Shown: piece after piece, positions 15,032 through 34,149 of the stretch
Numbering within the stretch: the stretch's first letter is position 1
Layout of the letters: the number at the start of each line of letters is the position of its first letter
Virus record (IMG/VR): IMGVR_UViG_2802428878_000002
Source: a virus
Lineage: Duplodnaviria; Heunggongvirae; Uroviricota; Caudoviricetes
Reading direction: 5' to 3' (one strand)
Length of the DNA: 34,915 bases
Notes under the pieces: generated by a model
The model's input: the letters and a program-made list of their open reading frames with translations, nothing else
Told to the model about the DNA's origin: nothing
The model's database searches: none
Position numbers and translations under genes: made by a program

Positions 15032-15051
15032 GAGTGTTCCTTCCTTGGCGG

Positions 15052-20212: not shown

Positions 20213-20221
20213 GCACACACC

Positions 20222-20414: not shown

Positions 20415-20431
20415 TTCTCCGCATTAGAGAA
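20415..20431. promoter_or_regulatory. palindromic operator copy 4 (TTCTCCGCATTAGAGAA)
   Basis: Same motif, 22 bp upstream of the second XRE gene. Confidence 0.7.
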
Positions 20432-20453
20432 TTTCTGGCCCCGAAAGGACCCT

Positions 20454-21665: not shown

Positions 21666-21739
21666 GCGCCTCTAGCTCATCTGGCCAGAGCACCTGACTC
21701 TTAATCAGGGGGTACGGGGTTCGAGACCCCGGGGGCGTA
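21666..21739 (+). tRNA. tRNA-Lys(CTT)
   Basis: Cloverleaf; CCTGA CT CTT AA TCAGG; no CCA. Confidence 0.92.
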
Positions 21740-21744
21740 CGTAG

Positions 21745-22229
21745 GTAGCGTGACGTGCGGTGGAGTAGACCGCACACGTACCAGCGGGTGGTGCCGGGTA
21801 CTGGGTACGCGGCCAAGGTGCCGCAACCGACCACCAATCGGCTCCTACCCACTCGCAGATTCTTCCGGTGTCAGAACCGGTTGGGGTGTCGCGGCGGCAC
21901 CGATAGGCGCGAGATATACCGCCAACCGTCCACGGCTCGATTGCTCCGATCCCACTCCTCCTTCGCAAGGCGGAGCGGCGCGGCATCTCACCGCGAAACG
22001 ACAACCCGTTCACCCAGTAGGGGCACCCGACGGTGAGCGGCAGGGTGCAGGGTAAGACACCTTCGAGTGGGTCGAACCAGAGAGGGACACCGGCACACCG
22101 GTGTGGCGCCGTGGACAGACACGGGGGCGATAATGCAGCCCTTGACGGAGCAGGAGCCGCCTCGTTCTGGCGGCAGGCTAGAAATCCGAACACCGAGTGG
22201 TCCCGTCGGGCGCAACAATCCGGGACGCT
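21745..22229 (+). ncRNA. candidate large structured RNA, class unknown
   Basis: Non-coding gap with at least 10 hairpins; boundaries approximate. Confidence 0.45.
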
Positions 22230-22301
22230 GCGAGCGTGGTCCAATGGCTACGACCTCAGACTTCCAATCTGATGATGCGGGTTCGATTCCCGTCGCTCGC
22301 T
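22230..22301 (+). tRNA. tRNA-Gly(TCC)
   Basis: TCAGA CT TCC AA TCTGA; U73. Confidence 0.92.
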
Positions 22302-22304
22302 CTT

Positions 22305-22373
22305 GGTGCCCACGACGGTGGGTAGGGACAGAGGACGGTCCCTTCGCCACGGGGTTCGATTCCCCGCGTTGGC
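22305..22373 (+). pseudogene. degenerate tRNA-like element (intact T-arm only)
   Basis: CGGGG TTCGATT CCCCG at 22350-22366; no valid D-arm or anticodon loop. Confidence 0.35.
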
Positions 22374-22454
22374 TTCGGCCCGCGGTGCGGAACTGGTGAT
22401 GCCAGCTGGTCGGTGCCAGGTACCGGATCACTGCCGACCTTCTCCAAACATCTT

Positions 22455-22539
22455 GGCCCTGTGGCGAAACATGGCAGCCGCGCCGGATTCAAACTCCGGT
22501 GTCCGACAGGACGTGTGGGTTCGATTCCCTCCAGGGCTA
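22455..22539 (+). tRNA. tRNA-Leu(CAA)
   Basis: CCGGA TT CAA AC TCCGG; long variable arm. Confidence 0.9.
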
Positions 22540-22557
22540 CCGCGTCCGAATGAACAA

Positions 22558-22629
22558 TGCCTTGTGGGGTAATCGGCAGCCCACTGGATTTTGGCTCCGG
22601 GAGTTCAGGTTCGAGCCCTGGCGAGGCAG
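22558..22629 (+). tRNA. tRNA-Gln(TTG)
   Basis: U1-A72; CTGGA TT TTG GC TCCGG. Confidence 0.9.
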
Positions 22630-22655
22630 CAGGTCGGCGGACTCGAAACGCACAT

Positions 22656-22727
22656 TGCCCGGTGGTCTAACGGCAGGACTCCTGATTCTGGATCAGGTCG
22701 GTGGAGGTTCGAATCCTCCCTGGGCAG
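22656..22727 (+). tRNA. tRNA-Gln(CTG)
   Basis: U1-A72; CCTGA TT CTG GA TCAGG. Confidence 0.92.
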
Positions 22728-22840
22728 CATCGCGAATTCCACTGTGCGGAGTTAATCGCCCGCGTGGCAGTGGTCTTCGCAGGTGGCGTTCCAGGAGCAT
22801 GTTCGACGCTATGGCCCCATTCCAGGATCGCCGCCACAAC

Positions 22841-22917
22841 GCCCTGATAGCTCAGTCCGGCCAGAGCGGCTGCCTTGTAAGCAGTGTCCGTCGCCGGTTC
22901 GAATCCGGCTTGGGGCT
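22841..22917 (+). tRNA. tRNA-Thr(TGT)
   Basis: GCTGC CT TGT AA GCAGT. Confidence 0.9.
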
Positions 22918-22937
22918 CTCCTGCGCCTTCGGGTGTT

Positions 22938-23012
22938 GCCGCCATAGCTCAGTGGCAGAGCGCTTTCTTGGTGAGAAAGAGGTCTCGGGTTCAACCCCCG
23001 ATGGTGGCTCCA
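22938..23012 (+). tRNA. tRNA-Thr(GGT)
   Basis: CTTTC TT GGT GA GAAAG; encoded CCA. Confidence 0.92.
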
Positions 23013-23152
23013 CGGTTGTCGGTGACCAGCCCGCTGCGCGAGCGGCACGCGGAACCGTCAGACTCGGCACTCCTCTGCCCACGCAGGGGTCATTGGCTGG
23101 CTAAGCCGCACCGAGCAAGTCAGCTGCAGCTGGCCGAAAGGCGTGGGTGTCT

Positions 23153-23228
23153 GTGGATGTAGCGCAGCTGGTAGCGCGTCTCGTTGCCAACGAGAAGGCC
23201 GCGGGTTCGAATCCCGTCTTCCACTCCA
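23153..23228 (+). tRNA. tRNA-Gly(GCC)
   Basis: TCTCG TT GCC AA CGAGA; CCA. Confidence 0.92.
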
Positions 23229-23362
23229 GCACTTCTCCCCTTCGCGGGAGGTGTGGGGGCTGGTTCCGGCCCCGGCGTCAACGGAGGGTTCGCGTGGACC
23301 CTGTACCGCCCGATTGAGGTTGGCGGACGCAGAGCGCAGGTAACCCCTGTGGCAGGACACAT

Positions 23363-23436
23363 GCCCCTCTGGCCCAACTGGCAGAGGCGTCGGCTTCAGG
23401 TGCCGAAGGTTCCCGGTTCGAATCCGGGGAGGGGTA
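23363..23436 (+). tRNA. tRNA-Leu(CAG) with short variable loop
   Basis: TCGGC TT CAG GT GCCGA; 5-nt variable region. Confidence 0.85.
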
Positions 23437-23439
23437 CAA

Positions 23440-24214
23440 CGAGGCATGGCTCGATAACCGGAGGTGACTCCGGGAAAGGTGGGTGTGACACCCCGCCGCC
23501 ACATCTCTACGGGGATGTGGCACACCATGCACGGCTCCCGCAAGGAGTACCTGGGCAACCGGGTGCCACAGCGGTCCGAGTTCGGCGACAGAAGGGACGG
23601 CGAGTGCTCACCTTCGCGCCGGCGCCACGCAGCGCCGGCACCGCCACGTGAACGAGGACTGCCAGCGGGGTGCGGGGGAACACCAGTCCGAGCTCGCCAG
23701 GCGAGGGCGGTTCCCATGACCTCGGAATCCGGTGGGCGCATCGGTGCACGACGAAGAGCGCAGCGGCTTGGCGGCCAAGCGCGAGGGTGTGAAGCATTCT
23801 GTGGCTCAAAAGGTTACGGAACTTCGCGGGAAAGCACATCCTCAGTCACAAGCACTAGCTCAATTGGCAGAGCAATCGTTTCTGGAACGGTAGGTCGCCG
23901 GTTCAAGTCCGGCGTGTTTATCCAAGCGAAAGACTTTCCCTGCCACGGCTCGAAAGCGCCGTAATCCTCGGCCCTGCACAGGGAATCGAGGCAACCGTGA
24001 ACTCGCAAGGTGATCGGATGTCCGTGAGGCAGTAGAGCAATACAGGGGTTAGCTCCCCCTGTGCGAATCGAAACCTGCGGAGTAGATCGTGGCATGACGA
24101 GTGGCTGCCGCAAGCAGCCCGGCGTGACGGTTACCAGGGGAACCTGGATGGATAAATCGGGAAACCATAATCCGATGAGAGACCGTTGCTTTGGGGCCTA
24201 ATCTCAGCCCCAAA
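23440..24214 (+). ncRNA. GOLLD-like large ornate RNA
   Basis: ~775-nt hairpin-dense non-coding block inside a mycobacterial tRNA array near an HNH gene, with an internal tRNA. Size and context match GOLLD; not confirmed with the covariance model. Confidence 0.7.
23849..23924 (+). tRNA. tRNA-Gln(CTG)-like element embedded in the GOLLD-like RNA
   Basis: GCTC AATTGGCA GAGC D-arm; ATCGT TT CTG GA ACGGT; GCCGG TTCAAGT CCGGC; C1.A72 mismatch; CCA. Confidence 0.75.
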
Positions 24215-24221
24215 TAACCAA

Positions 24222-24296
24222 TAGCTCGTAGCTCAATTGTGGCAGAGCGCGCGACTGTTAATCGCGTAGTTGGAGGTTCGACTCCTCCCGGGCTAG
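24222..24296 (+). tRNA. tRNA-Asn(GTT)
   Basis: U1-A72, G73; CGCGA CT GTT AA TCGCG. Confidence 0.92.
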
Positions 24297-24308
24297 CGCT
24301 TCATATTT

Positions 24309-24379
24309 GGGGCTGTAGTTCAACGGTAGAACAGGGCTTTTGCACGGCTCTGATCGGGGTTCGATTCCTCGTAGCTCCA
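24309..24379 (+). tRNA. tRNA-Ala(TGC)
   Basis: G3.U70 identity pair; loop TT TGC AC. Confidence 0.88.
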
Positions 24380-24435
24380 CGGGCGCATCCGCGCCATTCC
24401 CGCCCGCCCACAACACGGAAAGGAGGCGCGGCGCC

Positions 24436-24903
24436 ATGACGACGATCGTGTCCGCGCCTTCCGTGCGGGTGTTCAACGCCGACTATTCGTTCCTCGACAC
24501 CGTACGCTGGCAAGACGCGGTCGGCATGCTTCTACGTGACGTGGCATACGCGCTGGAGGCGCACGTGCCCCCGCGCATCGTCCGCTCGCCAAGCGCCGAG
24601 GTGGAGGTGCCCAAGTCGCTTCTGCTGACTCGGTACGCCCCTGTCCCCTACCGGCGTGATCCGGAGTTCGCCTCGCGTGCCGAGATTCTGCGCAGGGACA
24701 ACTACCTGTGCCAGTACGTCGGCTGTGGGGCCAAGGCCACCACGATCGATCACGTGTTCCCGCGTTCGCGCGGCGGCGCACCGTCAACGTGGACGAACCA
24801 GGTAGGCGCGTGCGAGCCGTGCAACGGCCGCAAGGCAGACCGTACACCGGAGGAAGCGGGTATGAAGCTGATCCGCGAGCCTTTCCGGCCAGCGCACATC
24901 TGA
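24436..24903 (+). CDS. HNH endonuclease (McrA-like)
   Basis: VFNADYSFL, EILRRDNYLCQYVGC...TIDHVFPRSRGG..W.N.V..C..CNGRKADRTPEEAGM; AGGAGG RBS (track start 24340 lies inside tRNA-Ala). Confidence 0.92.
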   Translation: MTTIVSAPSVRVFNADYSFLDTVRWQDAVGMLLRDVAYALEAHVPPRIVRSPSAEVEVPKSLLLTRYAPVPYRRDPEFASRAEILRRDNYLCQYVGCGAKATTIDHVFPRSRGGAPSTWTNQVGACEPCNGRKADRTPEEAGMKLIREPFRPAHI

Positions 24904-24947
24904 CGACGGGGAACAGACCCGTGACGGTTCGGAGAGACGAGCTTCAT

Positions 24948-25018
24948 GGTCCGTTCGGTTAGTGGTAGGCCCCGGGATTCTCAGTCCCGTTACGCGGGTT
25001 CGATTCCCGCACGGACTA
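24948..25018 (+). tRNA. tRNA-Glu(CTC)
   Basis: CGGGA TT CTC AG TCCCG. Confidence 0.9.
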
Positions 25019-25155
25019 CGTTGAGTGGCGTTGAAATCGGGTTTGATTCCCGCAGGCCGACAGTGTGCCTGGTTGGTGTGGTGCCGCACGTCATGTGAGA
25101 GCCGTGCGAATCGGCGAAAACTCTACCGCTGCCGAGGAATCGGCAAGTAGAGCAT

Positions 25156-25228
25156 GGTCCCGAAGCTGAACTGGTTCAAGCGCTCGGTTGAAGCCCAAGA
25201 GAGGTCGGTTCGATTCCGGCCGGGACCA
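25156..25228 (+). tRNA. tRNA-Phe(GAA)
   Basis: CTCGG TT GAA GC CCAAG (one mismatch). Confidence 0.85.
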
Positions 25229-25234
25229 CGCAAT

Positions 25235-25322
25235 GTCGGTGTGGCGGAACGGCAGACGCACCAGCTTGAGGGGCTGGCGCCCATTACAGGGTGTGCAGGT
25301 TCGACTCCTGTCATCGACACCA
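25235..25322 (+). tRNA. tRNA-Leu(GAG)
   Basis: CCAGC TT GAG GG GCTGG; long arm; CCA. Confidence 0.92.
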
Positions 25323-25323
25323 A

Positions 25324-25396
25324 GCCGCGGTAGCTCAGTGGAGAGAGCACCTGCCTACGAAGCAGGGGGCCGGGGGTTCAAATCCCTCTCGCGGTA
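25324..25396 (+). tRNA. tRNA-Arg(ACG)
   Basis: CCTGC CT ACG AA GCAGG. Confidence 0.92.
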
Positions 25397-25426
25397 CAAC
25401 GGTCCAGAAGACCGAAGATCTCAAAA

Positions 25427-25503
25427 CGACCTGTAGCTCATCTGGTTAGAGCGCCGCCCTGATAAGGCGGAGGCAGTTGGTTCAAATCCATCCAGGTCGA
25501 CCA
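25427..25503 (+). tRNA. tRNA-Ile(GAT)
   Basis: CCGCC CT GAT AA GGCGG; CCA. Confidence 0.92.
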
Positions 25504-25523
25504 CGCGGCAATCCGCCGCGAAT

Positions 25524-25597
25524 GCCGGTGTAGAGCAGCTGGTTAGCTCGCCACCCTGTCAAGGTGGAGGCCGCGGGTTCAAGTCCCGTCACTGGCG
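25524..25597 (+). tRNA. tRNA-Asp(GTC)
   Basis: CCACC CT GTC AA GGTGG; G73. Confidence 0.92.
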
Positions 25598-25625
25598 CCC
25601 GTGGTGCATTTTGAGCACCGTTTTC

Positions 25626-25702
25626 AGTCTCGTAGCTCAGTTGGAAGAGCACCTGGTTTACACCCAGGGTTGTCGGGGGTTCGAATCCCTCCGGGACTAC
25701 CA
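25626..25702 (+). tRNA. tRNA-Val(TAC)
   Basis: CCTGG TT TAC AC CCAGG; CCA. Confidence 0.92.
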
Positions 25703-25703
25703 T

Positions 25704-25787
25704 GCCGGCACGGCGCAGAGGCGAGGCGCGGCGGACTGTAAATCCGTTCTTTCGGGTGAGTGGGTTCAATTCCTTCTGTCGGCACCA
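25704..25787 (+). tRNA. tRNA-Tyr(GTA)
   Basis: GCGGA CT GTA AA TCCGT; long arm; CCA. Confidence 0.9.
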
Positions 25788-25815
25788 GGCCCGCGTCGGC
25801 CTTAACGACGCGAAA

Positions 25816-25889
25816 CGGATTGTGGCGCAGCTTGGTAGCGCGTTCGCTTTGGGAGCGAAAGGTCGCGCGTTCGAATCGCGCCAGTCCGA
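25816..25889 (+). tRNA. tRNA-Pro(TGG)
   Basis: C1-G72; TTCGC TT TGG GA GCGAA. Confidence 0.92.
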
Positions 25890-25902
25890 CGCACAATTTT
25901 CA

Positions 25903-25975
25903 GCCCGCGTAGCTCAGTGGATAGAGCGCCTGCCTCCGAAGCAGGAGGCCCCGAGTTCAACTCTCGGCGTGGGTA
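25903..25975 (+). tRNA. tRNA-Arg(CCG)
   Basis: CCTGC CT CCG AA GCAGG; A20. Confidence 0.92.
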
Positions 25976-25979
25976 CTTC

Positions 25980-26058
25980 GCCTCCATAGCTCAGTCTGGT
26001 CCAGAGCCACCGACTTTTAATCGGAGGGTCGCAGGTTCAAATCCTGCTGGGGGCACCA
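25980..26058 (+). tRNA. tRNA-Lys(TTT)
   Basis: Loop CT TTT AA; CCA. Confidence 0.92.
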
Positions 26059-26081
26059 GGCCGCACCGCCGGCCGAATCTT

Positions 26082-26164
26082 GGAAGATGAACGCGCCCGG
26101 CGCGCGCACGGCTTCGAACACCGTTGGTCGCTTCGGCGATGGGGATCAGGGCCTCCGTCTTCCG
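26082..26164 (+). tRNA. tRNA-Ser(CGA) with non-canonical T-arm
   Basis: GGAAGAT/GTCTTCC acceptor, G73, long variable arm, loop TT CGA AC; T-arm GGGGATCAGGGCCTCC lacks GTTCR. Confidence 0.65.
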
Positions 26165-26187
26165 CTGTACGGGTATCTATCCCCTAT

Positions 26188-26260
26188 GCGTCCGTGGTCT
26201 AGCGGCTAAGACGCCGGTCTCCAAAACCGGAAGACGCAGGTTCGAGTCCTGCCGGGCGTG
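26188..26260 (+). tRNA. tRNA-Trp(CCA)
   Basis: CCGGT CT CCA AA ACCGG; G73. Confidence 0.92.
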
Positions 26261-26326
26261 CAAGTACCCGACCATCGAACGGTGGTCGGATCCAGAGGTC
26301 GCGACGACAGTCGCGGTCTCATCCAT

Positions 26327-26399
26327 GGCGCCGTGCTGTGATGGCTAGGCACCCGGGTTTTCACCTCGGGACGCGCGGGTTCAATTCCCGTCGGCGCTA
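26327..26399 (+). tRNA. tRNA-Glu(TTC)
   Basis: CCGGG TT TTC AC CTCGG. Confidence 0.88.
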
Positions 26400-26573
26400 C
26401 TCGATTTTTCGGCGTGTCGCGACGCCTGGCTGGCCCTTGACGCCGACGTCGAACAAGCTGAATGCGCGAGATCCCGTGTCAACGCCAACCCCCCGTTATC
26501 ACCTGGCGAAGGCATCTCCACGACGCCGAATAGTCTCGGACGAGAGGTGACCTGCACGGGATCTCGCGTATAT

Positions 26574-26649
26574 GCCCCTGTAGCTCAGAGGACAGAGCGA
26601 CGCGGTCCTAACGCGACGGCCGGCGGTTCGAATCCGTCCGGGGGCACCA
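26574..26649 (+). tRNA. tRNA-Arg(CCT)
   Basis: Loop GT CCT AA (unusual G32); CCA. Confidence 0.88.
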
Positions 26650-26677
26650 TGGCATCAATCGCAAAGGAGCAGCAACC

Positions 26678-27286
26678 GTGGACAGCTCTCCCCGCCTGTT
26701 ACCGGCCGGAATCGGGTCCGTGTTCATCGTCGACGTCGAGGCCACCTCGCGCACACCGTTCAGTGGTGTGATGACGGAGTTCGCCGTGGTCCATCTGGTT
26801 TCGGGCACTTCGTTCTACGGGCACACCTACCGCAACCATCCACATCCGGACAATCCCGCAATCCCTGTTGCAGATCTCGACGGCGGCGGTGACTACATCA
26901 GCGAGGCGTACTGGATTATGGACGGCAAGGACGTCGCAAACTCGGTGGCAGGTTCGGAACCGGCCGATGTCGCTAGCGCACTGCGCACATGGCTCGACGG
27001 ATTCGGTTTACCACGCCGGGTACTGGTCAGCGACAACAACGGCTACGACGCGATGTGGCTGAACTGCTTCACTGACCTCTGGACGGGTGAGGTCTTTTTC
27101 GGCCACTCGTCGCGGCGCATCGGTGACTTCTACGCAGGCACTCGGCAGAAGTGGGCTGATCACTCCTCATGGAAGAGTCTGCGCCGCACACGACACACCC
27201 ACCATCCACTCGACGACGCACGGGGTAACGCTGAGGCTCTGCGCACGCTGCTGGGCATTGATGTCGATCGCAAAGGCGAGGATTAA
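26678..27286 (+). CDS. DEDDh 3'-5' exonuclease (Rv2179c/RNase AS-like)
   Basis: IVDVEAT (ExoI), DNNGYD (ExoII), HTHHPLDDARGNA (ExoIII); true start may be GTG 26720. Confidence 0.82.
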   Translation: MDSSPRLLPAGIGSVFIVDVEATSRTPFSGVMTEFAVVHLVSGTSFYGHTYRNHPHPDNPAIPVADLDGGGDYISEAYWIMDGKDVANSVAGSEPADVASALRTWLDGFGLPRRVLVSDNNGYDAMWLNCFTDLWTGEVFFGHSSRRIGDFYAGTRQKWADHSSWKSLRRTRHTHHPLDDARGNAEALRTLLGIDVDRKGED

Positions 27287-27288
27287 CC

Positions 27289-27534
27289 ATGCCGACGATG
27301 ACGCTGTACGCCCTGTGGTGCGAGGGATACGCCGCCACCGGAGAGCATGGACGCGCGCGTTCACTGGGTACCTGGGCCGCGGAGTCATTCGACTCTGCTG
27401 TGGAACTGTGGAATGCGACCAAGAACCGAAATTCGATGTACGGAAACCTCGTTCACCACGAGAACGGTTCCTGGACCTTGTGGGGCTGCCGGTTATTCGA
27501 CAACGAGGCCGATGCCCGCCGAGCGTTCGGATGA
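27289..27534 (+). CDS. hypothetical phage-like protein
   Basis: GAGGA RBS; Trp-rich 81 aa. Confidence 0.65.
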   Translation: MPTMTLYALWCEGYAATGEHGRARSLGTWAAESFDSAVELWNATKNRNSMYGNLVHHENGSWTLWGCRLFDNEADARRAFG

Positions 27535-27658
27535 ACGGCTCCAGCTGAGAACTAGCGGTGTCGGCGTGTCGCGCGGTCGCAGTGGATTCGAGAGTTCTTG
27601 CAGCGGAGGCTATATGCCGGTGCTCGAACCGCACCAATCGCCGAACCTTGGAGGGCAT

Positions 27659-27862
27659 ATGAAACTCTGCGTCACCGCTGTGATCGCGGCGGCACCCTTG
27701 TTGATCTTCGCTCCATCCGCCAGCGCGGGGCCGCGCTGCCTCCCAGACCAAACAACCTGCTGCCCCAGCGGATACATAGTGGCCGAACACCCCAGCGGTG
27801 CGATGACGTGCTCTCCTGACGTCGATGCCCAGTCCGCCGCCCGAAACAGCATCCCGATCTGA
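27659..27862 (+). CDS. small secreted Cys-rich protein (67 aa)
   Basis: GGAGGG RBS; signal peptide MKLCVTAVIAAAPLLIFAPSASA; four Cys in the mature part (tail of track ORF 27347). Confidence 0.6.
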   Translation: MKLCVTAVIAAAPLLIFAPSASAGPRCLPDQTTCCPSGYIVAEHPSGAMTCSPDVDAQSAARNSIPI

Positions 27863-27922
27863 TCGGTAGACACTCCACCTCCGCAGTGTGCGCCGCTGCG
27901 ATTCAGAGGTGTCAGGCGCAGG

Positions 27923-27997
27923 AGCGGAGTAGGGCAGCTCGGTCAGCCCGCGTGGCTCATAACCACGAAGTCGCAGGTTCGAATCCTGCCTCCGCCA
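27923..27997 (+). tRNA. tRNA-Met(CAT), initiator-like
   Basis: A1.C72 mismatch, AGCTCGGT D-loop, CGTGG CT CAT AA CCACG. Confidence 0.85.
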
Positions 27998-28302
27998 CGA
28001 CGTCCCACATGAGCTGCAACTCAAGGGATAACAGAGGGCACGACAACACCGATGGCGGTATGAGACATGGCTAATGATCCTGGCCGACGAACTGCGGAAA
28101 AACGCTCGTGGCGTCGTGAGATGGACGTGGAGGCAACAGCCCAGGTCGAGCCATTCACCCCGTACGCGCATTGCATAAGCCTGGTGGAGTGCCGCACAAC
28201 CTGCGTCTATGTGGGCCAAGGGTGTTCAGAGGTGCACAGGAATCACTACCGCGATCTCTCTGCTGATGAAGGGGTTCCACCACCCCTAACTCAGCGGGTT
28301 AA

Positions 28303-28375
28303 CGCTCCGTAGCTCAGTTGGTAGAGCTCCGCACTCATAATGCGAAAGTCGCGGGTTCAAGTCCCGCCGGAGCAA
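28303..28375 (+). tRNA. tRNA-Met or Ile2 (CAT)
   Basis: Loop CT CAT AA; C1.A72 mismatch. Confidence 0.85.
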
Positions 28376-28457
28376 CGAGTTCTAGCCCCTTGCGGGCCTG
28401 AACATTTGGAGGGTGCCTCCGACGAATGGCGCCGTCGACGTGGCGCTGTTCTGCCCT

Positions 28458-28907
28458 TCAGAACTGAATGTTGGCGCTCATCGAGTATCGATCGAACTGG
28501 GAATGTTCGAGCAGGCCGTCGAGAAGCCGGGCACGCTGCATCTCGGGCTCGGACACCTTCATCCCGATCACGCCTTTGCCGGCTTCGCTTATAGGGTTTC
28601 CGCTGGGAAGAACGCAGCGGCCGCCATCGACGCTCAAAACAAGATCACGCTGAATGGGCACACCGTTGTATCGGATGTCGAGCCAGTGGCCGTAAATCTT
28701 CTTATCTGGGAATCCGCCAGATTCGGACCATGCCTCGGTCCACGGCTCACCATCGAGATGGTCCTTGCCCCAGGCAAGGCTAATTGCGGCGTCCTCGTGA
28801 AACACGTACAGCTGCCGGTGACCATCCTCGGTGGTCACATTCTCGACCTTCGTCCAGTCGTCTGGAGAACTCGCCTCAACCTTTGTGAGGATCGAAAAGT
28901 AGTTCAC
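28458..28907 (-). CDS. hypothetical protein inserted antisense within the tRNA array
   Basis: 149 aa with natural composition; GTG start. Confidence 0.65.
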   Translation of the reverse strand: MNYFSILTKVEASSPDDWTKVENVTTEDGHRQLYVFHEDAAISLAWGKDHLDGEPWTEAWSESGGFPDKKIYGHWLDIRYNGVPIQRDLVLSVDGGRCVLPSGNPISEAGKGVIGMKVSEPEMQRARLLDGLLEHSQFDRYSMSANIQF

Positions 28908-29015
28908 GGCTGAAATCTAACCAGGACCAGTCGAATATCACCTGGCTTACGCGAATCTGGCCTATGCACCTTTCTTCATCACATCCTGAACCGCCGGATA
29001 GCCTCCGGCAGAAAT

Positions 29016-29105
29016 GGAAGACCCACCCGAGGGCTGGCGACGGGCGCTGTCTTGAAAACAGTTGGGGCCGAGAGGCCCGTGTCGGTTCGATCCCGACGTC
29101 TTCCG
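29016..29105 (+). tRNA. tRNA-Ser(TGA)
   Basis: GCTGT CT TGA AA ACAGT; long arm; G73. Confidence 0.9.
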
Positions 29106-29240
29106 CGCAACCCAACCGGCTCACAACTGGAAGGGAACCGCTCGGCTGAGATGCCGGGTGCGGGTGGCTCCGCCTGCGTGGCCGTGGACAGACGGCGCGC
29201 AGACAGCGGCCCGGGCTGGGCCTGTCCCCCGGCTCGACAT

Positions 29241-29316
29241 GGCGTCGTTAGCTCAGCGGTAGAGCCCCGGTTTGTGGAACCGGTAGTCGTCGGTTCGATC
29301 CCGACACGTCGCCCCA
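29241..29316 (+). tRNA. tRNA-His(GTG)
   Basis: Encoded G-1:C73; CCGGT TT GTG GA ACCGG; CCA. Confidence 0.92.
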
Positions 29317-29397
29317 CTGTTCGGTGTGCACTTGGCAGCCAAGCCCGCAATCGCGCCGAACACAACCAATCACGATGTTGCGACCGATCCTTAGAAC

Positions 29398-29688
29398 ATG
29401 CCAACCACCATCTACCCGACCATCCACGGCGATGATCGGAGTCTCGAAGCGATAATCGCCTCGTTCACCGTCAACGCGACGCTACGTAGCTATCTCGAGG
29501 ATTTCTTGCCGGGACGGCGTGACTTCAACCGGCCATCACACCTCGTCAAACTTGACGACGGTTGGATTCTCGTCCTTTACGTAGACACAGCTGACGACAC
29601 CGGGTATCTCAAATTCGATTGCTCCGGTGGATCGCATGAGTTCATCGACGCCTACAGAGCACATGCCCTGACGGGACGTTGGCTCTGA
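29398..29688 (+). CDS. hypothetical protein
   Basis: 96 aa, plausible globular composition. Confidence 0.5.
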   Translation: MPTTIYPTIHGDDRSLEAIIASFTVNATLRSYLEDFLPGRRDFNRPSHLVKLDDGWILVLYVDTADDTGYLKFDCSGGSHEFIDAYRAHALTGRWL

Positions 29689-29847
29689 GATGAGGTCAGC
29701 ATGATGCACTGGGCGGGACCTGATGCTGAACGTTGTCGACCTCGCGGTAACGACCAGGGTTAGTGCGCTAGGCGAGGATCGGGCGCAGTGCTACTGGGTG
29801 GCCCTGGTGACAATCTCCAGCTCAACATGACAGTTCTGCACGAAGAT

Positions 29848-29920
29848 GCCTCCGTGGCGCAACGGATAGCGCACCGGTTTTCTACTCCGATGGTTGCCGG
29901 TTCGAATCCGGCCGGGGGCA
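29848..29920 (+). tRNA. tRNA-Arg(TCT)
   Basis: A20; loop TT TCT AC; weakened anticodon stem (C27.A43, U31.U39). Confidence 0.85.
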
Positions 29921-30000
29921 CCGAGTTCGACACAGATACCGGCATGTCGTCGCTGTCTCGGCACAACGACAGAGCGCGGCGGACAACATCGAAAGATCCA

Positions 30001-30078
30001 CGGGCTGTGGGAAAGTTTGGTCAATCCGCCTGGCTGGGGGCCAGGAAATCGCGCGTTCGAATCGCGCCAGCCCGACCA
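30001..30078 (+). tRNA. tRNA-Pro(GGG)
   Basis: CCTGG CT GGG GG CCAGG; CCA. Confidence 0.9.
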
Positions 30079-30124
30079 GCGTGGCGGAAAGCCCGTCGCG
30101 CGAAAACACACGAAGGGAGGAGCC

Positions 30125-31315
30125 GTGAGCACACAATTCCCCGTCACGATGCGCGGGGCAGACAACGTCGCACTCTGGGCGTACGAGCATGAGATCGAGC
30201 CGGCCGCCCTGAACCAGTTGCGCAACATCGCCACTCTCGGGCCGGTTGCTAAGGTGGCAGTGATGCCAGATGTCCACTTGGGCAAGGGCGCCACGGTCGG
30301 ATCCGTCATCGCGATGCGAGATGCGGTCTCCCCCTCGGCGGTCGGCGTCGATATCGGTTGTGGTGTCTGCGGCGTCCGAACGTCTCTTTCAGCCCACGAT
30401 CTCCCGGATGATCTGTCCGGGCTGCGCTCCGCGGTGGAGGCAGCGATTCCGGTCGGATTCAACTCGCACGAGCGGGCCGTGAACGTCCAGCGTCTCGGGC
30501 TGCGTACTGCTGAGCACGATCGACTCTGGCAGTCGGCCAAGGCGATTCACGCCAACGTTGACCCGTTCGGTGGTCGTGCCCCGCGCCAGCTCGGCACGCT
30601 CGGTGGCGGCAACCATTTCCTCGAGGTGTGCCTGGACGGCGAGGACCGCGTATGGCTTACCCTCCATTCAGGATCGCGTAACGTCGGCAAGGAGCTGGCT
30701 GAGCGACACATCACGGTCGCAAAGGGCCTGCCGCACAACGCAGATCTACCGGATCGAGACCTGGCGTTCTTCTACGCGAACACCCCGGAGATGGACGCTT
30801 ACCTCTACGACCTGACGTGGGCGCAGCAGTACGCCGCGCTGTCGCGGCAGGTGATGATGGCGCTGTTCCGCACCGTACTCAGTGAGGCCTTCGCAGGAGT
30901 GCGGTTCACCGACGAGATCAACGTGCACCACAACTACGTGCGCCGCGAGACTGTTGGCGGTGAGGAGTTCATCGTCACCCGCAAGGGGGCTATTCGCGCA
31001 GGATCTGACGAACTGGCGCTGATCCCCGGCAGCATGGGTACGGGCTCGTACGTGGTGCGCGGTTTGGGTAACCCTGACTCGTTGTTCTCAGCTTCGCACG
31101 GGGCGGGTCGCAAGATGAGCCGCTCCGCCGCCAAACGGACATTCACCGTCGAGGATCTGGCAGAACAGACCGCCGGCATCGAGTGCCGAAAGGACGCTGG
31201 TGTCGTCGACGAGATTCCCGGGGCCTACAAGGACATCCACGGTGTCATCGCCGCTCAGGACAACCTCGTCGCCGTAGTGGCGCACCTGCGCACCATCCTC
31301 TGTGTGAAGGGCTAA
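30125..31315 (+). CDS. rtcB: RtcB RNA 2',3'-cyclic phosphate/5'-OH ligase
   Basis: MPDVHLGKG, GVDIGCG, LGTLGGGNHF, LHSGSR, HNY, RKGA, IPGSMG, SHGAGR, DEIPGAYK; GGAGG RBS before GTG 30125 (track start 29894 spans tRNAs). Confidence 0.96.
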   Translation: MSTQFPVTMRGADNVALWAYEHEIEPAALNQLRNIATLGPVAKVAVMPDVHLGKGATVGSVIAMRDAVSPSAVGVDIGCGVCGVRTSLSAHDLPDDLSGLRSAVEAAIPVGFNSHERAVNVQRLGLRTAEHDRLWQSAKAIHANVDPFGGRAPRQLGTLGGGNHFLEVCLDGEDRVWLTLHSGSRNVGKELAERHITVAKGLPHNADLPDRDLAFFYANTPEMDAYLYDLTWAQQYAALSRQVMMALFRTVLSEAFAGVRFTDEINVHHNYVRRETVGGEEFIVTRKGAIRAGSDELALIPGSMGTGSYVVRGLGNPDSLFSASHGAGRKMSRSAAKRTFTVEDLAEQTAGIECRKDAGVVDEIPGAYKDIHGVIAAQDNLVAVVAHLRTILCVKG

Positions 31316-31488
31316 GTCGCATAGCGGAAACCCCTGATGGGTTGAGGCAGCATGCGCGAGGTGCGGCACGTCGATGCCAGCGTGTCGTACCTCGTGCTTG
31401 GCGACAGTGCGGCGGCATGGCACCGTTGTGACAAGCACAGGCGCGTGCCTCGTCATCTGATGCAAGGCCCACGACAGGAGAGCCGATC

Positions 31489-31716
31489 GTGAATATGCCA
31501 TCCAGCAACAAGGTCATCGAAGAGCTCGGGGACTATGTCAATGACCCGGCCAATGCTTCAGTTATGGATGTCTTCCGGGAGATCGGCGAGCGGGGAAGGA
31601 TGTTGCACACCGCGGAGATCGCTTCTGATCCGGAGTGGTTCGCACGGAGCTTCGTTGCGTGGATTCGAGCAGGGGCGCCGACATGCAGCAGACAAGCTCT
31701 CAACCCGGACAACTAG
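31489..31716 (+). CDS. hypothetical protein
   Basis: AGGAG RBS; 75 aa helical. Confidence 0.55.
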   Translation: MNMPSSNKVIEELGDYVNDPANASVMDVFREIGERGRMLHTAEIASDPEWFARSFVAWIRAGAPTCSRQALNPDN

Positions 31717-31805
31717 CTCAACAATCCAACTGACGAGGTGTGTGCTGTGCCACCAGGCCGTGTACCAGCGTGGGCACGGAATCACTTCAGTGTGCGGAGA
31801 CAAGA

Positions 31806-32039
31806 ATGCGGAAACCCGTTGGTCGATCAATGGCGGCCCTCAAGAAACTTGAGCAGCAGAACAACCGACTCAAGTCCTCCTATCACACCGCGAGCGAGAA
31901 GCGTGCGATGAAGGCCGCACGCGAGAAGCGGCAAGCTACGCGAGCCGAAGCTAGTGCGGAAGAGCTTCAGGAGATGTTGGACGCCGATATGCGTTGGCTC
32001 GACAGTCTTGGCCCCAGGCTCAGCCAAAAAAAGGTCTGA
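31806..32039 (+). CDS. hypothetical basic coiled-coil protein
   Basis: MRKPVGRSMAALKKLEQQNNRLK... (track start 31740). Confidence 0.5.
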   Translation: MRKPVGRSMAALKKLEQQNNRLKSSYHTASEKRAMKAAREKRQATRAEASAEELQEMLDADMRWLDSLGPRLSQKKV

Positions 32040-32113
32040 CACTTAGCCTTCGGCAACACTTCCCAACTTGAACATTGAGCTGGCCCAGCTCCACCCCCGC
32101 TAGCGCGGGTTCT

Positions 32114-32187
32114 GTCTCCGTGGCCGAGTGGTTAGGCAGCGGCCTGCAAAGCCGTCTACGCCGGTTCAAGTCCGGCCGGAGACTCCA
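32114..32187 (+). tRNA. tRNA-Cys(GCA)
   Basis: GCGGC CT GCA AA GCCGT; U73; CCA. Confidence 0.93.
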
Positions 32188-32281
32188 CACTGGTCCTTCG
32201 CAGGATCGGCTGTGTTCCTTGGGCATAACCGAACGTGTCACTGCGCCACTGCAGCTCACGTAGCCCATAACCTGCACAATC

Positions 32282-33139
32282 ATGCAGAACTACGCAAGAC
32301 CAGTATCCGATATGCCCTGGTTCAGACCTTGGATGCTTAACAGCACAAAAGAACTAAAACGCGACTTGATCAAGTACGAGGGACGCGAGTGGCGGTGTGA
32401 CGGATGTGAGCTCAATGAGTGGATGGGACAACGCATCCCCCTCCAAATTGACCATATCGACGGTGTTCGTAACAACTGTCTCCGAACCAATCTCAGGTTC
32501 CTGTGCCCAAACTGCCATGCGATGACACCGACATACGCCGGGCGAAACAGAAAGAACGGACGACTCGTGGCCAACGACGATGACATCCGAACGGCTTACG
32601 ACAAGTTCCTCATCCAATCAGGACGAGCGCCGTCGTTGAATGAGCTGCATATGTCGCTCGGGTATTCCGGCCCCATCAGGAACGATCCGCAGCGGGACCG
32701 CCTCATTCGCGCTCTCGGAGTGGATCGCCCTACTCTGAGGATGGCTCCAGCGCCTTCTGCTAGCCCCAAGCACGACACGAAGATCGTCTGGCCAGACGAC
32801 CATGTCATCGAAGAACTACTAGTCACGTATCCCCGGACCGCTGTGGCCGAAATGCTGGGAGTGTCAGACACCGCGGTGAAAAAGCACTGCGCCAAGAGGA
32901 ACATTCCTGAATCGGGCAGCTACCGGCGAAGACCCACAGCCCCGACAGCTGCTCTCGTGAATAGCCGAGAGCCTTCCACCATGTCGCGCCGGGATAGGAG
33001 CCTTGCCAGGCTGAAGGCCGCGCATGGCACCCGCAAGGGATATCTGTTGGAATCTCGTCTCGGTGTGCCGCACTGCCCGAAATGCCGGACGGCGAACACC
33101 AAATACTGCGCGCAACTCAGATTGCGCACGGCTGGATAA
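32282..33139 (+). CDS. phage-type HNH (homing) endonuclease with C-terminal DNA-binding modules
   Basis: C..C...W.G..IPLQIDHIDG...N....NLRFLCPNCHAMTPTY; later HTH-like AVAEMLGVSDTAVKK and HGTRKGY...C..C zinc motif. Confidence 0.88.
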   Translation: MQNYARPVSDMPWFRPWMLNSTKELKRDLIKYEGREWRCDGCELNEWMGQRIPLQIDHIDGVRNNCLRTNLRFLCPNCHAMTPTYAGRNRKNGRLVANDDDIRTAYDKFLIQSGRAPSLNELHMSLGYSGPIRNDPQRDRLIRALGVDRPTLRMAPAPSASPKHDTKIVWPDDHVIEELLVTYPRTAVAEMLGVSDTAVKKHCAKRNIPESGSYRRRPTAPTAALVNSREPSTMSRRDRSLARLKAAHGTRKGYLLESRLGVPHCPKCRTANTKYCAQLRLRTAG

Positions 33140-33202
33140 GTTCACCAGGACGAACACTCGATTCGTACTCGAGAGGAGGGGGTTCGACTCCCCCATCCAG
33201 CT
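33131..33202 (+). tRNA. tRNA-Thr(CGT)
   Basis: CTCGA TT CGT AC TCGAG; overlaps the HNH stop codon. Confidence 0.88.
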
Positions 33203-33228
33203 CAAACGGACACGTGCAGTGTCTGATT

Positions 33229-33302
33229 CGGGGTATAGGAAAGCTTCGCAATCCGCCTCGTTCGGGACGAGGAGACCGGCGGTTCAAATCCGTCTACCCC
33301 GA
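33229..33302 (+). tRNA. tRNA-Pro(CGG)
   Basis: CCTCG TT CGG GA CGAGG; D-loop lacks G18G19. Confidence 0.85.
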
Positions 33303-33380
33303 CGTTGGTTTTGCACACTACCTGACAGTATCTTTTGGATAGATGATAGTATCTGCCAAACAGATACCGAAGGAGTAGAC

Positions 33381-34019
33381 ATGACCTACCCCGATACGAG
33401 CATCGCGCACCCCACCGATATCGCCCGCCAGGCTGATGCGCCTTGGCATCCGGGCGACGTCCAGTTCAATCTTCGCGGCTTGATCGACACCTCGATACTC
33501 ATCCGCCCCTTGTCCAGACACGTGTATGCATCGCGGTGGACCCACGACGGTAAAGCAACGGCCATTGTTGCTGATATAGCGGTGCTAGAGGACCAAAATC
33601 ATGCCGCCAGCCTCCACAGCCAAGTGACCGTGTCTCAGCCGAACGTTGTCAAGACACTATGTGCGGTTCTGGACAGTCCGCAGGTTTTCACCGTCGCCGG
33701 CGTGGTGTCCACGATCGGGGATGGTGAGCGACGCGCCTTGGTGCTATCCCCGCTACCGGAGGCCCTAGTCCCTGCAGCTGCGTCGGAAGCAGCAGTGCGG
33801 AACTGGGACTATCCCCCAGACTACGACGCAATCGTGGGCCGCAAGATCGCCGCTCTGCGCAGCGATAAAGGACTTCCCCAGGCCGCCCTAGCGGGCGTAT
33901 TGGGTGTCATGCAGTCGGGCGTCTCCGACATTGAATCCGGACGACGGTCATTAGACCTCAAGAAGTTGTATGCCATCGCATCTGCACTGAGCGTGCCAGT
34001 GCATGAGCTGTTGCCCTGA
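33381..34019 (+). CDS. two-domain protein: OB/SSB-like N-terminus fused to an XRE HTH
   Basis: GAAGGAG RBS before ATG 33381 (track start 33024 spans tRNAs); C-terminal LRSDKGLPQAALAGVLGVMQSGVSDIESGRR. Confidence 0.8.
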   Translation: MTYPDTSIAHPTDIARQADAPWHPGDVQFNLRGLIDTSILIRPLSRHVYASRWTHDGKATAIVADIAVLEDQNHAASLHSQVTVSQPNVVKTLCAVLDSPQVFTVAGVVSTIGDGERRALVLSPLPEALVPAAASEAAVRNWDYPPDYDAIVGRKIAALRSDKGLPQAALAGVLGVMQSGVSDIESGRRSLDLKKLYAIASALSVPVHELLP

Positions 34020-34064
34020 CGCGCGCAACAATGACATCCGATTGCATTGCGATAAAACAAATTT

Positions 34065-34149
34065 GGAGACGTGGCAGAGCGGCGAATGCAGCGCGTTGCT
34101 AGCGCGTAGTCGACTATATCGGCCGAGGGTTCGAGTCCCTCCGTCTCCG
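34065..34149 (+). tRNA. tRNA-Ser(GCT)
   Basis: GCGCG TT GCT AG CGCGT; long arm; G73. Confidence 0.9.

What the first reader, a model, noticed from the sequence alone, without database searches (positions are those of the whole stretch)
23440..24214. GOLLD-like giant RNA carrying a complete tRNA with a mismatched acceptor end inside it
Seen: ~775 nt of helices (CCGGAG/CTCCGG 23458-73, GCCACATCTC/GGGATGTGGC 23498-521, ACAGGGG/CCCCTGT, GGCTGC/GCAGCC, TTGGGGC/GCCCCAA 24191-213) with a full cloverleaf at 23849-23924: anticodon CTG, C1.A72 mismatch, U73, encoded CCA. A canonical Gln(CTG) already exists at 22656. Established: GOLLD RNAs occur in tRNA arrays, can carry tRNAs in their variable linker, and have been reported to form RNA-only nanocages; their function is unknown. 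Inference: the embedded tRNA is either an RNase P/Z processing signal that splits GOLLD into 5' and 3' halves, or displayed bait for anticodon nucleases; RtcB in the same array could re-ligate the pieces.
Basis: partly seen in the sequence, partly recalled or inferred. Interest (0 to 1): 0.82.

Follow-up and report, generated by a model that had tools for sequence, protein, structure and literature searches.

The report
Known GOLLD RNA with nested tRNA

Summary
Observation confirmed. Rfam's GOLLD model matches 23782-24210 over its full length (198.7 bits, cut-off 150, E 8e-55). A homologous, structured 5' domain extends the RNA back to 23438. A complete cloverleaf with anticodon CTG lies at 23849-23924 in the variable linker, with C1.A72, U73 and an encoded CCA.

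The locus is already described. The window's tRNA order is identical to the published M. abscessus subsp. bolletii M24 cluster, including Gln_CTG inside GOLLD between Leu_CAG and Asn_GTT (Behra 2019, Table S5). Morgado 2020 and the cryo-EM papers also discuss tRNAs in the GOLLD linker.

What I add from 33 distinct actinobacterial and phage relatives:
- The nested element is a swappable, decaying cassette (14 full, 6 partial, 11 absent among 31 on the tree).
- Its anticodon is not conserved.
- Its acceptor helix is always AU-rich and defective at the top (1:72 and/or 2:71 unpaired).
- It lacks the U1-A72/G73 signature of the array's two real Gln tRNAs.

It is most likely a tethered tRNA-shaped module, not a decoder.

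RNase P/Z cutting followed by RtcB re-ligation is chemically inconsistent. This scan has found GOLLD RNAs with tRNA-like inserts on other DNA several times. Interest is low.

The parts
21666..34150 (+). tRNA array unit: 36 ARAGORN calls or 35 Rfam tRNA hits, all on the + strand, interrupted by a few ORFs (HNH, RtcB and others)
   Evidence: The isoacceptor order is identical to the M. abscessus bolletii M24 cluster in Behra 2019 Table S5. It is syntenic with the pCBMA213_1 array.
23363..23437 (+). tRNA-Leu(CAG) directly abutting the GOLLD 5' end
   Evidence: The same Leu-GOLLD-Asn arrangement occurs in L141 and pCBMA213_1 and in published mycobacterial loci.
23438..24214 (+). Full GOLLD RNA, about 777 nt
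   Evidence: Rfam hit for the 3' part, homologous 5' domain, fold z -3.32.
23438..23781 (+). GOLLD 5' domain, fast-evolving: 87% identity to L141 and 66% to pCBMA213_1, against 96% and 85% for the 3' part
   Evidence: 110 predicted pairs, 18 with changes on both sides; z -4.18; nhmmer.
23782..23843 (+). Conserved hairpin that opens the Rfam model (model positions 1-62; the stem just before the linker)
   Evidence: Alignment to the model; nearly invariant in 8 relatives.
23844..23848 (+). AGUCA junction motif 5' of the insert, conserved in relatives whether or not a tRNA is present
23849..23924 (+). Nested tRNA-shaped module: anticodon CUG, C1.A72, G4.U69, U73 and CCA (23922-23924). The CCA runs into the conserved AGCRAAAG motif of GOLLD
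   Evidence: (53.3 bits).
23925..24214 (+). Conserved GOLLD 3' domain, ending in the UUGGGGC/GCCCCAA hairpin
24222..24297 (+). tRNA-Asn(GUU), 7 nt after the GOLLD 3' end. RNase P cleavage at its 5' end would define the GOLLD 3' end (inference)
   Evidence: A tRNA starts within about 10-15 nt of the GOLLD 3' end in 13 of 33 distinct relatives.
22656..22728 (+). Canonical tRNA-Gln(CUG) of the array (U1-A72, G73). It has the same 7-nt anticodon loop as the nested element but an unrelated body
24340..24903 (+). HNH endonuclease ORF. The true start is probably after tRNA-Ala, which ends at 24380. It is a known marker of these arrays
   Evidence: Pfam HNH_5 and HNH; Behra 2019/2022 and the 2026 DNA Res paper.
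30215..31315 (+). RtcB RNA ligase. The ORF is open from 29894 but overlaps tRNA-Pro at 30001-30078
   Evidence: Pfam PF01139, E 3.7e-118. RtcB is also present in phages Rey and Bongo and the L115 provirus, and absent from pCBMA213_1.

Best explanation
The stretch 23438-24214 is a GOLLD-family RNA inside a horizontally mobile mycobacterial tRNA array unit. Shown: family membership, the two-domain architecture with a variable linker, and tight flanking by tRNA-Leu(CAG) and tRNA-Asn(GUU). Inferred: it is co-transcribed with the array and its ends are set by processing of the two abutting tRNAs. Inferred by homology with the solved env-38 and S. agalactiae GOLLDs: it assembles into a closed homo-oligomer of 10-14 chains whose linker faces the interior. 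The linker here holds a well-formed tRNA-shaped cassette. I judge this most likely a tethered, non-decoding tRNA-like module (cargo or handle inside the cage) rather than a working tRNA-Gln. Among relatives its arms are kept by compensatory changes, while its anticodon, the top of its acceptor helix and even its presence are not conserved. It also lacks the identity marks of the array's own Gln tRNAs. My odds: GOLLD identity about 0.97; module tethered and non-decoding about 0.55-0.6.
For: GOLLD identity:
- Rfam gives 198.7 bits against a cut-off of 150, over the full model.
- Homologues score 182-216 bits in pCBMA213_1 and six cluster M phages.
- The 5' domain is homologous and covarying.
- Fold z-scores are -4.18 and -3.32.

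Non-decoder reading:
(1) Anticodons at the same linker site differ among relatives: Gln CTG/TTG, Ser GGA/TGA, Leu TAG, His ATG, Met CAT, Arg TCT/ACG, and 6-nt or 8-nt loops. Published loci list Gln_CTG, Arg_CCT, undetermined and Phe.
(2) In all 12 ARAGORN-detectable copies at least one of the two top acceptor pairs is unpaired. Across them 1:72 is unpaired in 8 of 12 and 2:71 in 6 of 12, while the D, anticodon and T stems are 98-100% paired with many double changes.
(3) The window's nested acceptor helix is 43% GC, against 57-93% in the other 35 array tRNAs. Only it and the two tRNA-Met have a 1:72 mismatch. Both real Gln tRNAs have U1-A72 and G73.
(4) Aziz, Reindeer and Bongo keep three hairpins but lack the 3' acceptor strand. 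pCBMA213_1 has a 4-bp acceptor and an 8-nt loop. Nanosmite and others have no tRNA.
(5) On the GOLLD core tree the full, partial and absent states need at least 9 changes. Near-identical cores (L123 against L117/L128/L130) carry unrelated tRNAs, which indicates cassette swapping.
(6) The insert's first bases and its CCA overlap A-rich junction motifs (AGUCA-A-rich and CMAAGCRAAAG) that are conserved even in tRNA-less relatives.
(7) Literature: the linker lies inside the cage; an 'inhibited storage' idea has been proposed for a Mycolicibacterium linker tRNA; no inner-tRNA signal was seen on a northern blot in M. aubagnense.
Against: - The window's copy is a good tRNA by every structural criterion. 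Its 53.3 bits falls within the array's range of 34.5-69.6. It has canonical U8, A14, G18G19 and a T54-U55-C56 T-loop, a 7-nt anticodon loop identical to that of the canonical Gln(CUG), and an in-register U73-CCA. It could therefore be a substrate for RNase P and 3' processing.
- A 1:72 mismatch does not block processing of initiator tRNA (my own knowledge).
- The covariation set was selected by ARAGORN, so cloverleaf pairing in it is partly circular.
- Relatives are not phylogenetically independent.
- Cage formation by this particular GOLLD is only inferred by homology.
Confidence: 0.6

Rival explanations
1. The nested element is a bona fide tRNA gene. RNase P and 3' processing excise it from the GOLLD precursor, yielding a working (possibly mis-acylated) tRNA and splitting GOLLD into a 5' half and a 3' half that may still assemble non-covalently.
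For: The cloverleaf is complete, with canonical tertiary nucleotides, an in-register encoded CCA and a normal Rfam tRNA score. Thirteen of the 36 array tRNAs also encode CCA. The 5' and 3' regions of GOLLD form separate 3D domains, and the S. agalactiae 3' domain alone oligomerises, so a split RNA is not obviously non-functional.
Against: - It has no U1-A72/G73 Gln signature, unlike both array Gln tRNAs.
- It has the weakest acceptor helix in the array.
- The closest relative, L141, has A1.A72 and an out-of-register CCCA. pCBMA213_1 has a 4-bp acceptor and an 8-nt loop.
- The anticodon is not conserved and the element is often truncated or missing.
- No inner-tRNA signal was seen in M. aubagnense.
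- The anticodon duplicates a canonical Gln(CUG) only 1.1 kb upstream.
Confidence: 0.2
2. The nested tRNA is a decaying relic of a tRNA gene that landed in a permissive, unstructured linker. It has no function of its own, and the window simply holds a young, still intact copy.
For: All stages of decay are seen among relatives, and loss occurs within the tight cluster M clade. The linker is disordered and variable in solved GOLLDs.
Against: The T and anticodon arms keep pairing through compensatory changes, even in copies that have lost the acceptor stem: GGGG/CCCC against GAGG/CCTC, and GCCGG/CCGGC against GTTGG/CCGAC. The site is re-occupied by different tRNAs in near-identical cores. About 20 of 31 relatives keep a tRNA-like element. 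This pattern suggests selection for having a tRNA-shaped insert.
Confidence: 0.15
3. One reading: the tethered tRNA is a decoy for anticodon nucleases, presented in many copies per cage, with RtcB resealing the cuts.
For: The 7-nt anticodon loop is identical to that of the canonical Gln(CUG). RtcB co-occurs in the window, Rey, Bongo and the L115 provirus. RtcB's substrate ends match those left by anticodon nucleases (my own knowledge). A 2026 paper calls tRNA arrays a putative anti-defence system (abstract).
Against: The anticodon loop is not conserved even in pCBMA213_1, which has 85% core identity and also lacks RtcB. The linker faces the cage interior, which would hide rather than display it. 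RtcB is explained equally well by repair of the array's free tRNAs. No nuclease is known for this host.
Confidence: 0.08

Closest known systems
GOLLD RNA in the large tRNA clusters of M. abscessus subsp. bolletii M24, M. aubagnense DSM 45150 and M. conceptionense MLE (Behra et al. 2019, PMC6582537, Fig. S11 and Table S5)
   Same: GOLLD lies between tRNA-Leu(CAG) and tRNA-Asn(GUU) with a predicted tRNA inside. The M24 column lists the same isoacceptor order as the window, including Gln_CTG inside GOLLD. HNH endonuclease lies in the cluster.
   Different: Nothing substantive. ARAGORN adds one tRNA-Ser(TGA) call at 29016 that is not in the published list or among the Rfam hits. I could not compare sequences directly because no M24 record is in the collections I could reach.
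GOLLD of Mycolicibacterium sp. CBMA 213 plasmid pCBMA213_1 (Morgado & Vicente 2018; Morgado et al. 2020, RNA Biol 17:1001, not held here)
   Same: Syntenic array (Leu-GOLLD-Asn-Ala-HNH-Glu). Rfam GOLLD scores 196.7 bits. The 3' part is 85% identical.
   Different: The 5' domain is only 66% identical. The nested element is degraded (4-bp acceptor, 8-nt loop read as Phe in the literature). No RtcB is found on the plasmid.
GOLLD RNAs of cluster M mycobacteriophages (Rey, Estes, Aziz, Reindeer, Bongo, Nanosmite)
   Same: Full-length Rfam GOLLD hits inside a tRNA array, the same junction motifs, a tRNA directly downstream, and RtcB a few kb away.
   Different: About 61-64% identity. A tmRNA lies upstream. 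The nested element ranges from a 5-bp-acceptor tRNA (Rey Ser GGA, Estes Leu TAG) through three hairpins without an acceptor, to none.
env-38 GOLLD (14-mer, PDB 9MEE; Kretsch et al. 2025, PMC12286853) and S. agalactiae GOLLD (12-mer, PDB 9L0R)
   Same: Same Rfam family and the same layout of 5' domain, linker and 3' domain. In these structures the linker is unresolved and points into the cage, and tRNAs in the linker are discussed.
   Different: Those constructs have no tRNA in the linker. The oligomeric state of the mycobacterial RNA is unknown.
Lactobacillus brevis ATCC 367 prophage GOLLD (Weinberg et al. 2009, Nature 462:656; not held, cited from Behra 2019 and from memory)
   Same: Founding member of the family. 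[quoted passage not shown]
   Different: Firmicute host and low GC. Its expression is tied to phage lysis, which is untested here.

Membership tests
GOLLD RNA (Rfam RF02032) | Covariance-model score at or above the curated gathering score, over the whole model | tested here: met
   198.7 bits against 150, model positions 1-416 of 416, E 8.2e-55.
GOLLD RNA (Rfam RF02032) | Conserved 3' domain, less conserved 5' domain, and a variable linker after the hairpin that precedes the 3' domain | tested here: met
   Identity to L141 and pCBMA213_1 is 96% and 85% for the 3' part against 87% and 66% for the 5' part. The 5' domain is structured and covarying and homologous in relatives. Linker length ranges from about 33 to about 130 nt among relatives.
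GOLLD RNA (Rfam RF02032) | Located in phages, prophages or mobile elements, next to tRNA genes | tested here: met
   It lies inside a 36-tRNA array, flanked within 0-7 nt by tRNAs. The array is syntenic with a plasmid array, and relatives occur in cluster M phages.
GOLLD RNA (Rfam RF02032) | Self-assembly into a closed homo-oligomeric cage | not testable with these tools
   Known only for env-38 and S. agalactiae GOLLD. For this RNA it is inferred by homology.
GOLLD RNA (Rfam RF02032) | Expressed as a long discrete RNA | not tested
A weak northern signal was reported for the M. aubagnense orthologue.
Canonical elongator tRNA-Gln | Cloverleaf with conserved tertiary nucleotides and a 7-nt anticodon loop | tested here: met
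   Rfam tRNA 53.3 bits, ARAGORN call, MFE cloverleaf with z -2.53.
Canonical elongator tRNA-Gln | Fully paired 7-bp acceptor stem | tested here: not met
   C1.A72 mismatch plus G4.U69. Thirty-three of the other 35 array tRNAs pair at 1:72; the two exceptions are the tRNA-Met genes.
Canonical elongator tRNA-Gln | Gln identity set as seen in the array's own Gln tRNAs (U1-A72, G73). U1-A72 is what GatCAB reads (my own knowledge) | tested here: not met
   The nested element has C1.A72 and U73. Gln(UUG) at 22558 and Gln(CUG) at 22656 both have U1-A72 and G73. The nested body is not among the closest matches to either.
Canonical elongator tRNA-Gln | Anticodon conserved at the orthologous site in relatives | tested here: not met
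   At least nine different anticodons or irregular loops occur at the same linker site.
Canonical elongator tRNA-Gln | Processed to 76 nt and aminoacylated | not testable with these tools
   No RNA data were available. The inner tRNA was not detected by northern blot in M. aubagnense.

The most novel reading that the evidence does not exclude
The linker insert is a selected, non-decoding tRNA mimic: a swappable cassette held inside the cage in 10-14 covalently tethered copies. Its deliberately weak, open-topped acceptor helix keeps it from being excised or charged. The GOLLD cage would then act as a sponge or decoy for tRNA-binding factors (anticodon nucleases, RNase P, modification enzymes) on behalf of the tRNA array's anti-defence role. 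The clade-wide defective, AU-rich acceptor top and the cassette swapping between near-identical cores have not, to my knowledge, been described.
Probability: 0.12. Interest if true: 0.75.

Novelty: already known. Interest (0 to 1): 0.25.

Why it matters
The function of GOLLD is a long-standing open question, and the tRNA in its linker is one of the few clues to it. This locus adds no new kind of object, because the same array with the same nested Gln(CUG) is already tabulated in the literature. The comparative pattern seen here does narrow the hypotheses. It argues against the nested tRNA being an ordinary decoder and against tRNA-guided splitting being essential to GOLLD. It also gives a natural allelic series (full, acceptor-less and absent) in culturable M. 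smegmatis phages and M. abscessus strains in which the role of the insert can be tested.

Tried and rejected
- The genome-contig scan with a loose 3'-domain pattern returned 103 loci. All were chance or coding matches and none was a GOLLD.
- No whole genome is held for the window, so the host could not be checked directly. The organism name comes from earlier AI notes and from identity of the tRNA order with the published M24 cluster.
- No close phage relative of the window exists in the phage collection. The element is plasmid- or ICE-like, with EccB/EccC, LppX and NAMPT.
- Morgado 2020 and Weinberg 2009 are not held in the library. Their content is cited only through papers that quote them.
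- No sigma-70-like promoter was found in 20200-26800. The single + strand terminator-like site is just the nested T-arm plus its U-rich 3' acceptor strand, and fewer such sites were found than in shuffles. I rejected it as a terminator.
- I rejected the idea that the nested tRNA is a duplicate of the array's Gln(CUG). The bodies are unrelated and only the 7-nt anticodon loop is shared.
- I did not build a covariance model of the whole RNA, because the alignment exceeds the 400-column limit.
- No structure or complex prediction was relevant to this finding.

Full report

Yes. Rfam's GOLLD model (RF02032) matches window 23782-24210 on the + strand over all 416 model positions, at 198.7 bits (gathering score 150) and E 8.2e-55. 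ARAGORN and the Rfam tRNA model both find a tRNA at 23849-23924/23921 with anticodon CTG, inside the part of the GOLLD model that is an unstructured variable linker.

Reading the sequence and parsing the ARAGORN structure gives acceptor strands CAAGCAC/GTGTTTA. This means a C1.A72 mismatch and a G4.U69 wobble, followed by U73 and an encoded CCA. A canonical tRNA-Gln(CTG) lies at 22656-22728. RtcB (Pfam E 3.7e-118) lies further down the array at about 30215-31315.

**2. Extent of the RNA**

The Rfam model covers only the hairpin before the linker and the conserved 3' domain. Several results show that the 344 nt between tRNA-Leu(CAG) (ends at 23437) and the model start belong to the same RNA:
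- They fold far better than shuffles (z -4.18, 0 of 100 shuffles as stable).
- They align with the same interval of the two nearest relatives, giving 110 predicted pairs of which 18 show changes on both sides.
- A sequence profile built from them finds homologous stretches of about 300 nt directly upstream of the conserved domain in about 20 further relatives (E 1e-8 to 1e-16).

The whole 777-nt RNA has z -3.32. The 5' part evolves faster than the 3' part: 87% and 66% identity against 96% and 85% to L141 and pCBMA213_1. This is how GOLLD is described in the literature.

**3. Context**

- The window holds a 36-tRNA array, all on the + strand, with an HNH endonuclease and RtcB among the tRNAs.
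- To its left lie EccB, EccC, an LppX/LprAFG lipoprotein, NAMPT, a phosphoribosyltransferase and a GmrSD_C protein.
- It is not a known phage.
- The nearest DNA in the plasmid collection is the tRNA array of Mycolicibacterium sp. CBMA 213 plasmid pCBMA213_1. That array has the same local order, Leu(CAG)-GOLLD-Asn(GUU)-Ala(UGC)-HNH-Glu(CUC).
- Earlier AI notes of this scan call the genome Mycobacteroides abscessus. I could not check this directly because no genome is held.
- The window's isoacceptor order is identical, tRNA by tRNA, to the M. abscessus subsp. bolletii M24 column of Table S5 in Behra et al. 2019. That column includes 'Gln_CTG' listed with GOLLD between Leu_CAG and Asn_GTT. The only difference is an ARAGORN-only Ser(TGA) call at 29016.

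**4. What is already known**

- Behra et al. [quoted passage not shown] They detected GOLLD weakly on northern blots and did not detect the inner 'pseudo tRNA'.
- Morgado & Vicente 2018 catalogued these arrays, mostly in the M. abscessus complex. They placed the CBMA213 plasmid array in the same group (G2) as chromosomal arrays of M. abscessus and M. chelonae.
- Morgado et al. 2020 (not held) reported GOLLD as widespread in Mycobacterium tRNA arrays (cited).
- Kretsch et al. 2025 showed that env-38 GOLLD forms a 14-mer cage whose unresolved linker points inward. They noted that phage tRNAs are sometimes present in the linker.
- A 2026 review cites a Mycolicibacterium GOLLD with tRNA-Phe in the linker and proposes 'inhibited storage' of that tRNA.

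The object, its setting and even this exact allele are therefore in print. This scan has also met GOLLD RNAs with tRNA-like inserts on other DNA several times.

**5. What the comparison adds**

I used an invariant 25-nt anchor at the start of the conserved part to collect relatives: 19 IMG/VR loci and 13 metagenome loci, plus six cluster M phages and pCBMA213_1. This gave 33 distinct sequences including the window.

(a) State of the insert. Of 31 sequences placed on a tree of the GOLLD core, the linker holds:
- an ARAGORN-detectable tRNA in 14;
- a recognisable but defective tRNA-like element in 6;
- no tRNA in 11.

The defective forms are of two kinds. pCBMA213_1 has a 4-bp acceptor and an 8-nt anticodon loop. 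Aziz, Reindeer and Bongo have three hairpins but no 3' acceptor strand.

(b) The anticodon is not conserved. It appears as CTG, TTG, GGA, TGA, TAG, ATG, CAT, TCT, ACG and irregular loops. The literature adds CCT, Phe and 'undetermined'.

(c) Pairing in the 12 distinct detectable copies. The D, anticodon and T stems are 98-100% paired, with many changes on both sides. Position 1:72 is unpaired in 8 of 12 and 2:71 in 6 of 12, and every copy lacks at least one of these two pairs. The cloverleaf part of this result is partly circular, because ARAGORN selected the set. The defective top is not circular.

(d) Comparison within the window. The nested acceptor helix is 43% GC against 57-93% for the other 35 tRNAs. 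Only the nested tRNA and the two tRNA-Met genes have a 1:72 mismatch. Both genuine Gln tRNAs have U1-A72 and G73, whereas the nested one has C1.A72 and U73. Its body is unrelated to the canonical Gln(CUG), and only the 7-nt anticodon loop is identical.

(e) Flanking motifs. The insert sits between AGUCA followed by an A-rich tract on the 5' side and CMAAGCRAAAG on the 3' side. Both are conserved in relatives without any tRNA. The first bases of the 'tRNA' and its 'CCA' overlap these junction motifs. This offers a simple reason why the top of the acceptor helix does not pair. The in-register CCA is not kept in the nearest relative L141 (A1.A72, then UCCCA) despite 96% core identity.

(f) Evolution on the tree. 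The three states need at least 9 changes on the core tree. Within the well-supported cluster M clade all three states occur. L123 differs by 0.004 substitutions per site from L117/L128/L130 yet carries an unrelated tRNA. The linker therefore behaves as a cassette site that is refilled, decays and is emptied.

**6. Mechanism**

Shown:
- GOLLD membership.
- The two-domain architecture.
- Tight flanking by tRNAs, with a 0-nt gap upstream and a 7-nt gap downstream. A tRNA starts within about 10-15 nt of the 3' end in 13 of 33 relatives.

Inferred:
- Co-transcription with the array. No sigma-70-like promoter was found in 20200-26800, although Behra et al. mark putative SigB promoters.
- End formation by processing of the abutting tRNAs.
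- Assembly into a cage with the linker inside, by homology with the solved structures.

For the insert, I judge a tethered, non-decoding tRNA-shaped module most likely (about 0.55-0.6). Excision as a real tRNA is possible for this well-formed copy (about 0.2), and a functionless relic is also possible (about 0.15).

The loop is not conserved even in pCBMA213_1, which also lacks RtcB, and an inward-facing linker hides the tRNA rather than displaying it.

The combination of RNase P/Z splitting and RtcB re-ligation does not work chemically. RtcB joins 2',3'-cyclic-phosphate or 3'-phosphate ends to 5'-OH ends, whereas RNase P and RNase Z leave 5'-phosphate and 3'-OH (my own knowledge). RtcB in the window, Rey, Bongo and the L115 provirus is explained equally well by repair of free array tRNAs.

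**7. Verdict**

The mechanism is speculative and partly inconsistent, and the novelty is low because the locus is published. The only possibly new points are comparative:
- the defective, AU-rich acceptor top throughout the clade;
- anticodon drift;
- cassette turnover in the linker.

These need a full survey and RNA data to stand.

Noticed in passing
window 21741-22229: A 489-nt gap between tRNA-Lys(CTT) and tRNA-Gly(TCC) was flagged by another first-reader note as a second ornate RNA. It has no Rfam match at E up to 1, and its fold z-score is only -1.25 (14 of 100 shuffles as stable). My tests give no support for a structured RNA there.
   Followed up: partly
window 27923-27998 and 28303-28376: Both tRNA-Met(CAT) genes of the array have a 1:72 mismatch (A1xC72 and C1xA72). 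C1xA72 is the bacterial initiator hallmark, so the mobile array may carry its own initiator tRNA.
   Followed up: no
window 29016-29106: ARAGORN calls a tRNA-Ser(TGA) that does not reach the Rfam tRNA gathering score and is absent from the published M24 cluster list. It may be a degenerate or false tRNA.
   Followed up: no
L106 1364-1507 (Rey gp107); likewise Estes gp105, Reindeer gp95, Aziz gp105: Small 'hypothetical protein' CDSs annotated in cluster M phages lie inside the GOLLD 5' domain and run into the conserved hairpin. They are probably mis-annotations of the RNA gene. GOLLD itself is not annotated in these records.
   Followed up: partly
L123 against L117, L128, L130 (IMG/VR proviruses): GOLLD cores that are nearly identical (0.004 substitutions per site) carry unrelated nested tRNAs: Met CAT against a 6-nt-loop tRNA preceded by an extra hairpin. 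This indicates recombinational swapping of the linker cassette.
   Followed up: partly
L116 and L126 (IMG/VR contigs of 344 kb and 189 kb): Jumbo-phage-sized contigs hold GOLLDs of this clade whose linker is only about 43 nt, a single hairpin with no tRNA, followed directly by tRNA-Glu(TTC).
   Followed up: no
window 23896-23914: The nested T-arm plus the U-rich 3' acceptor strand (GUGUUUAU) scores as the only + strand intrinsic-terminator-like site in 20200-26800. This is probably coincidental, since fewer such sites were found than in shuffles.
   Followed up: partly
window 3431-16851: The left part of the window encodes NAMPT plus a phosphoribosyltransferase, a GmrSD_C nuclease domain protein, an LppX/LprAFG lipoprotein, and EccB plus a 1425-aa EccC-like FtsK/SpoIIIE ATPase. 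The closest DNA match is a Tsukamurella tyrosinosolvens plasmid (69% identity over 72%). This indicates a conjugative-plasmid-like type VII module next to the tRNA array.
   Followed up: partly
L106-L111 (cluster M phages): In the phages a tmRNA gene lies between tRNA-Trp and tRNA-Asn just upstream of GOLLD. The window's array has no tmRNA hit.
   Followed up: no
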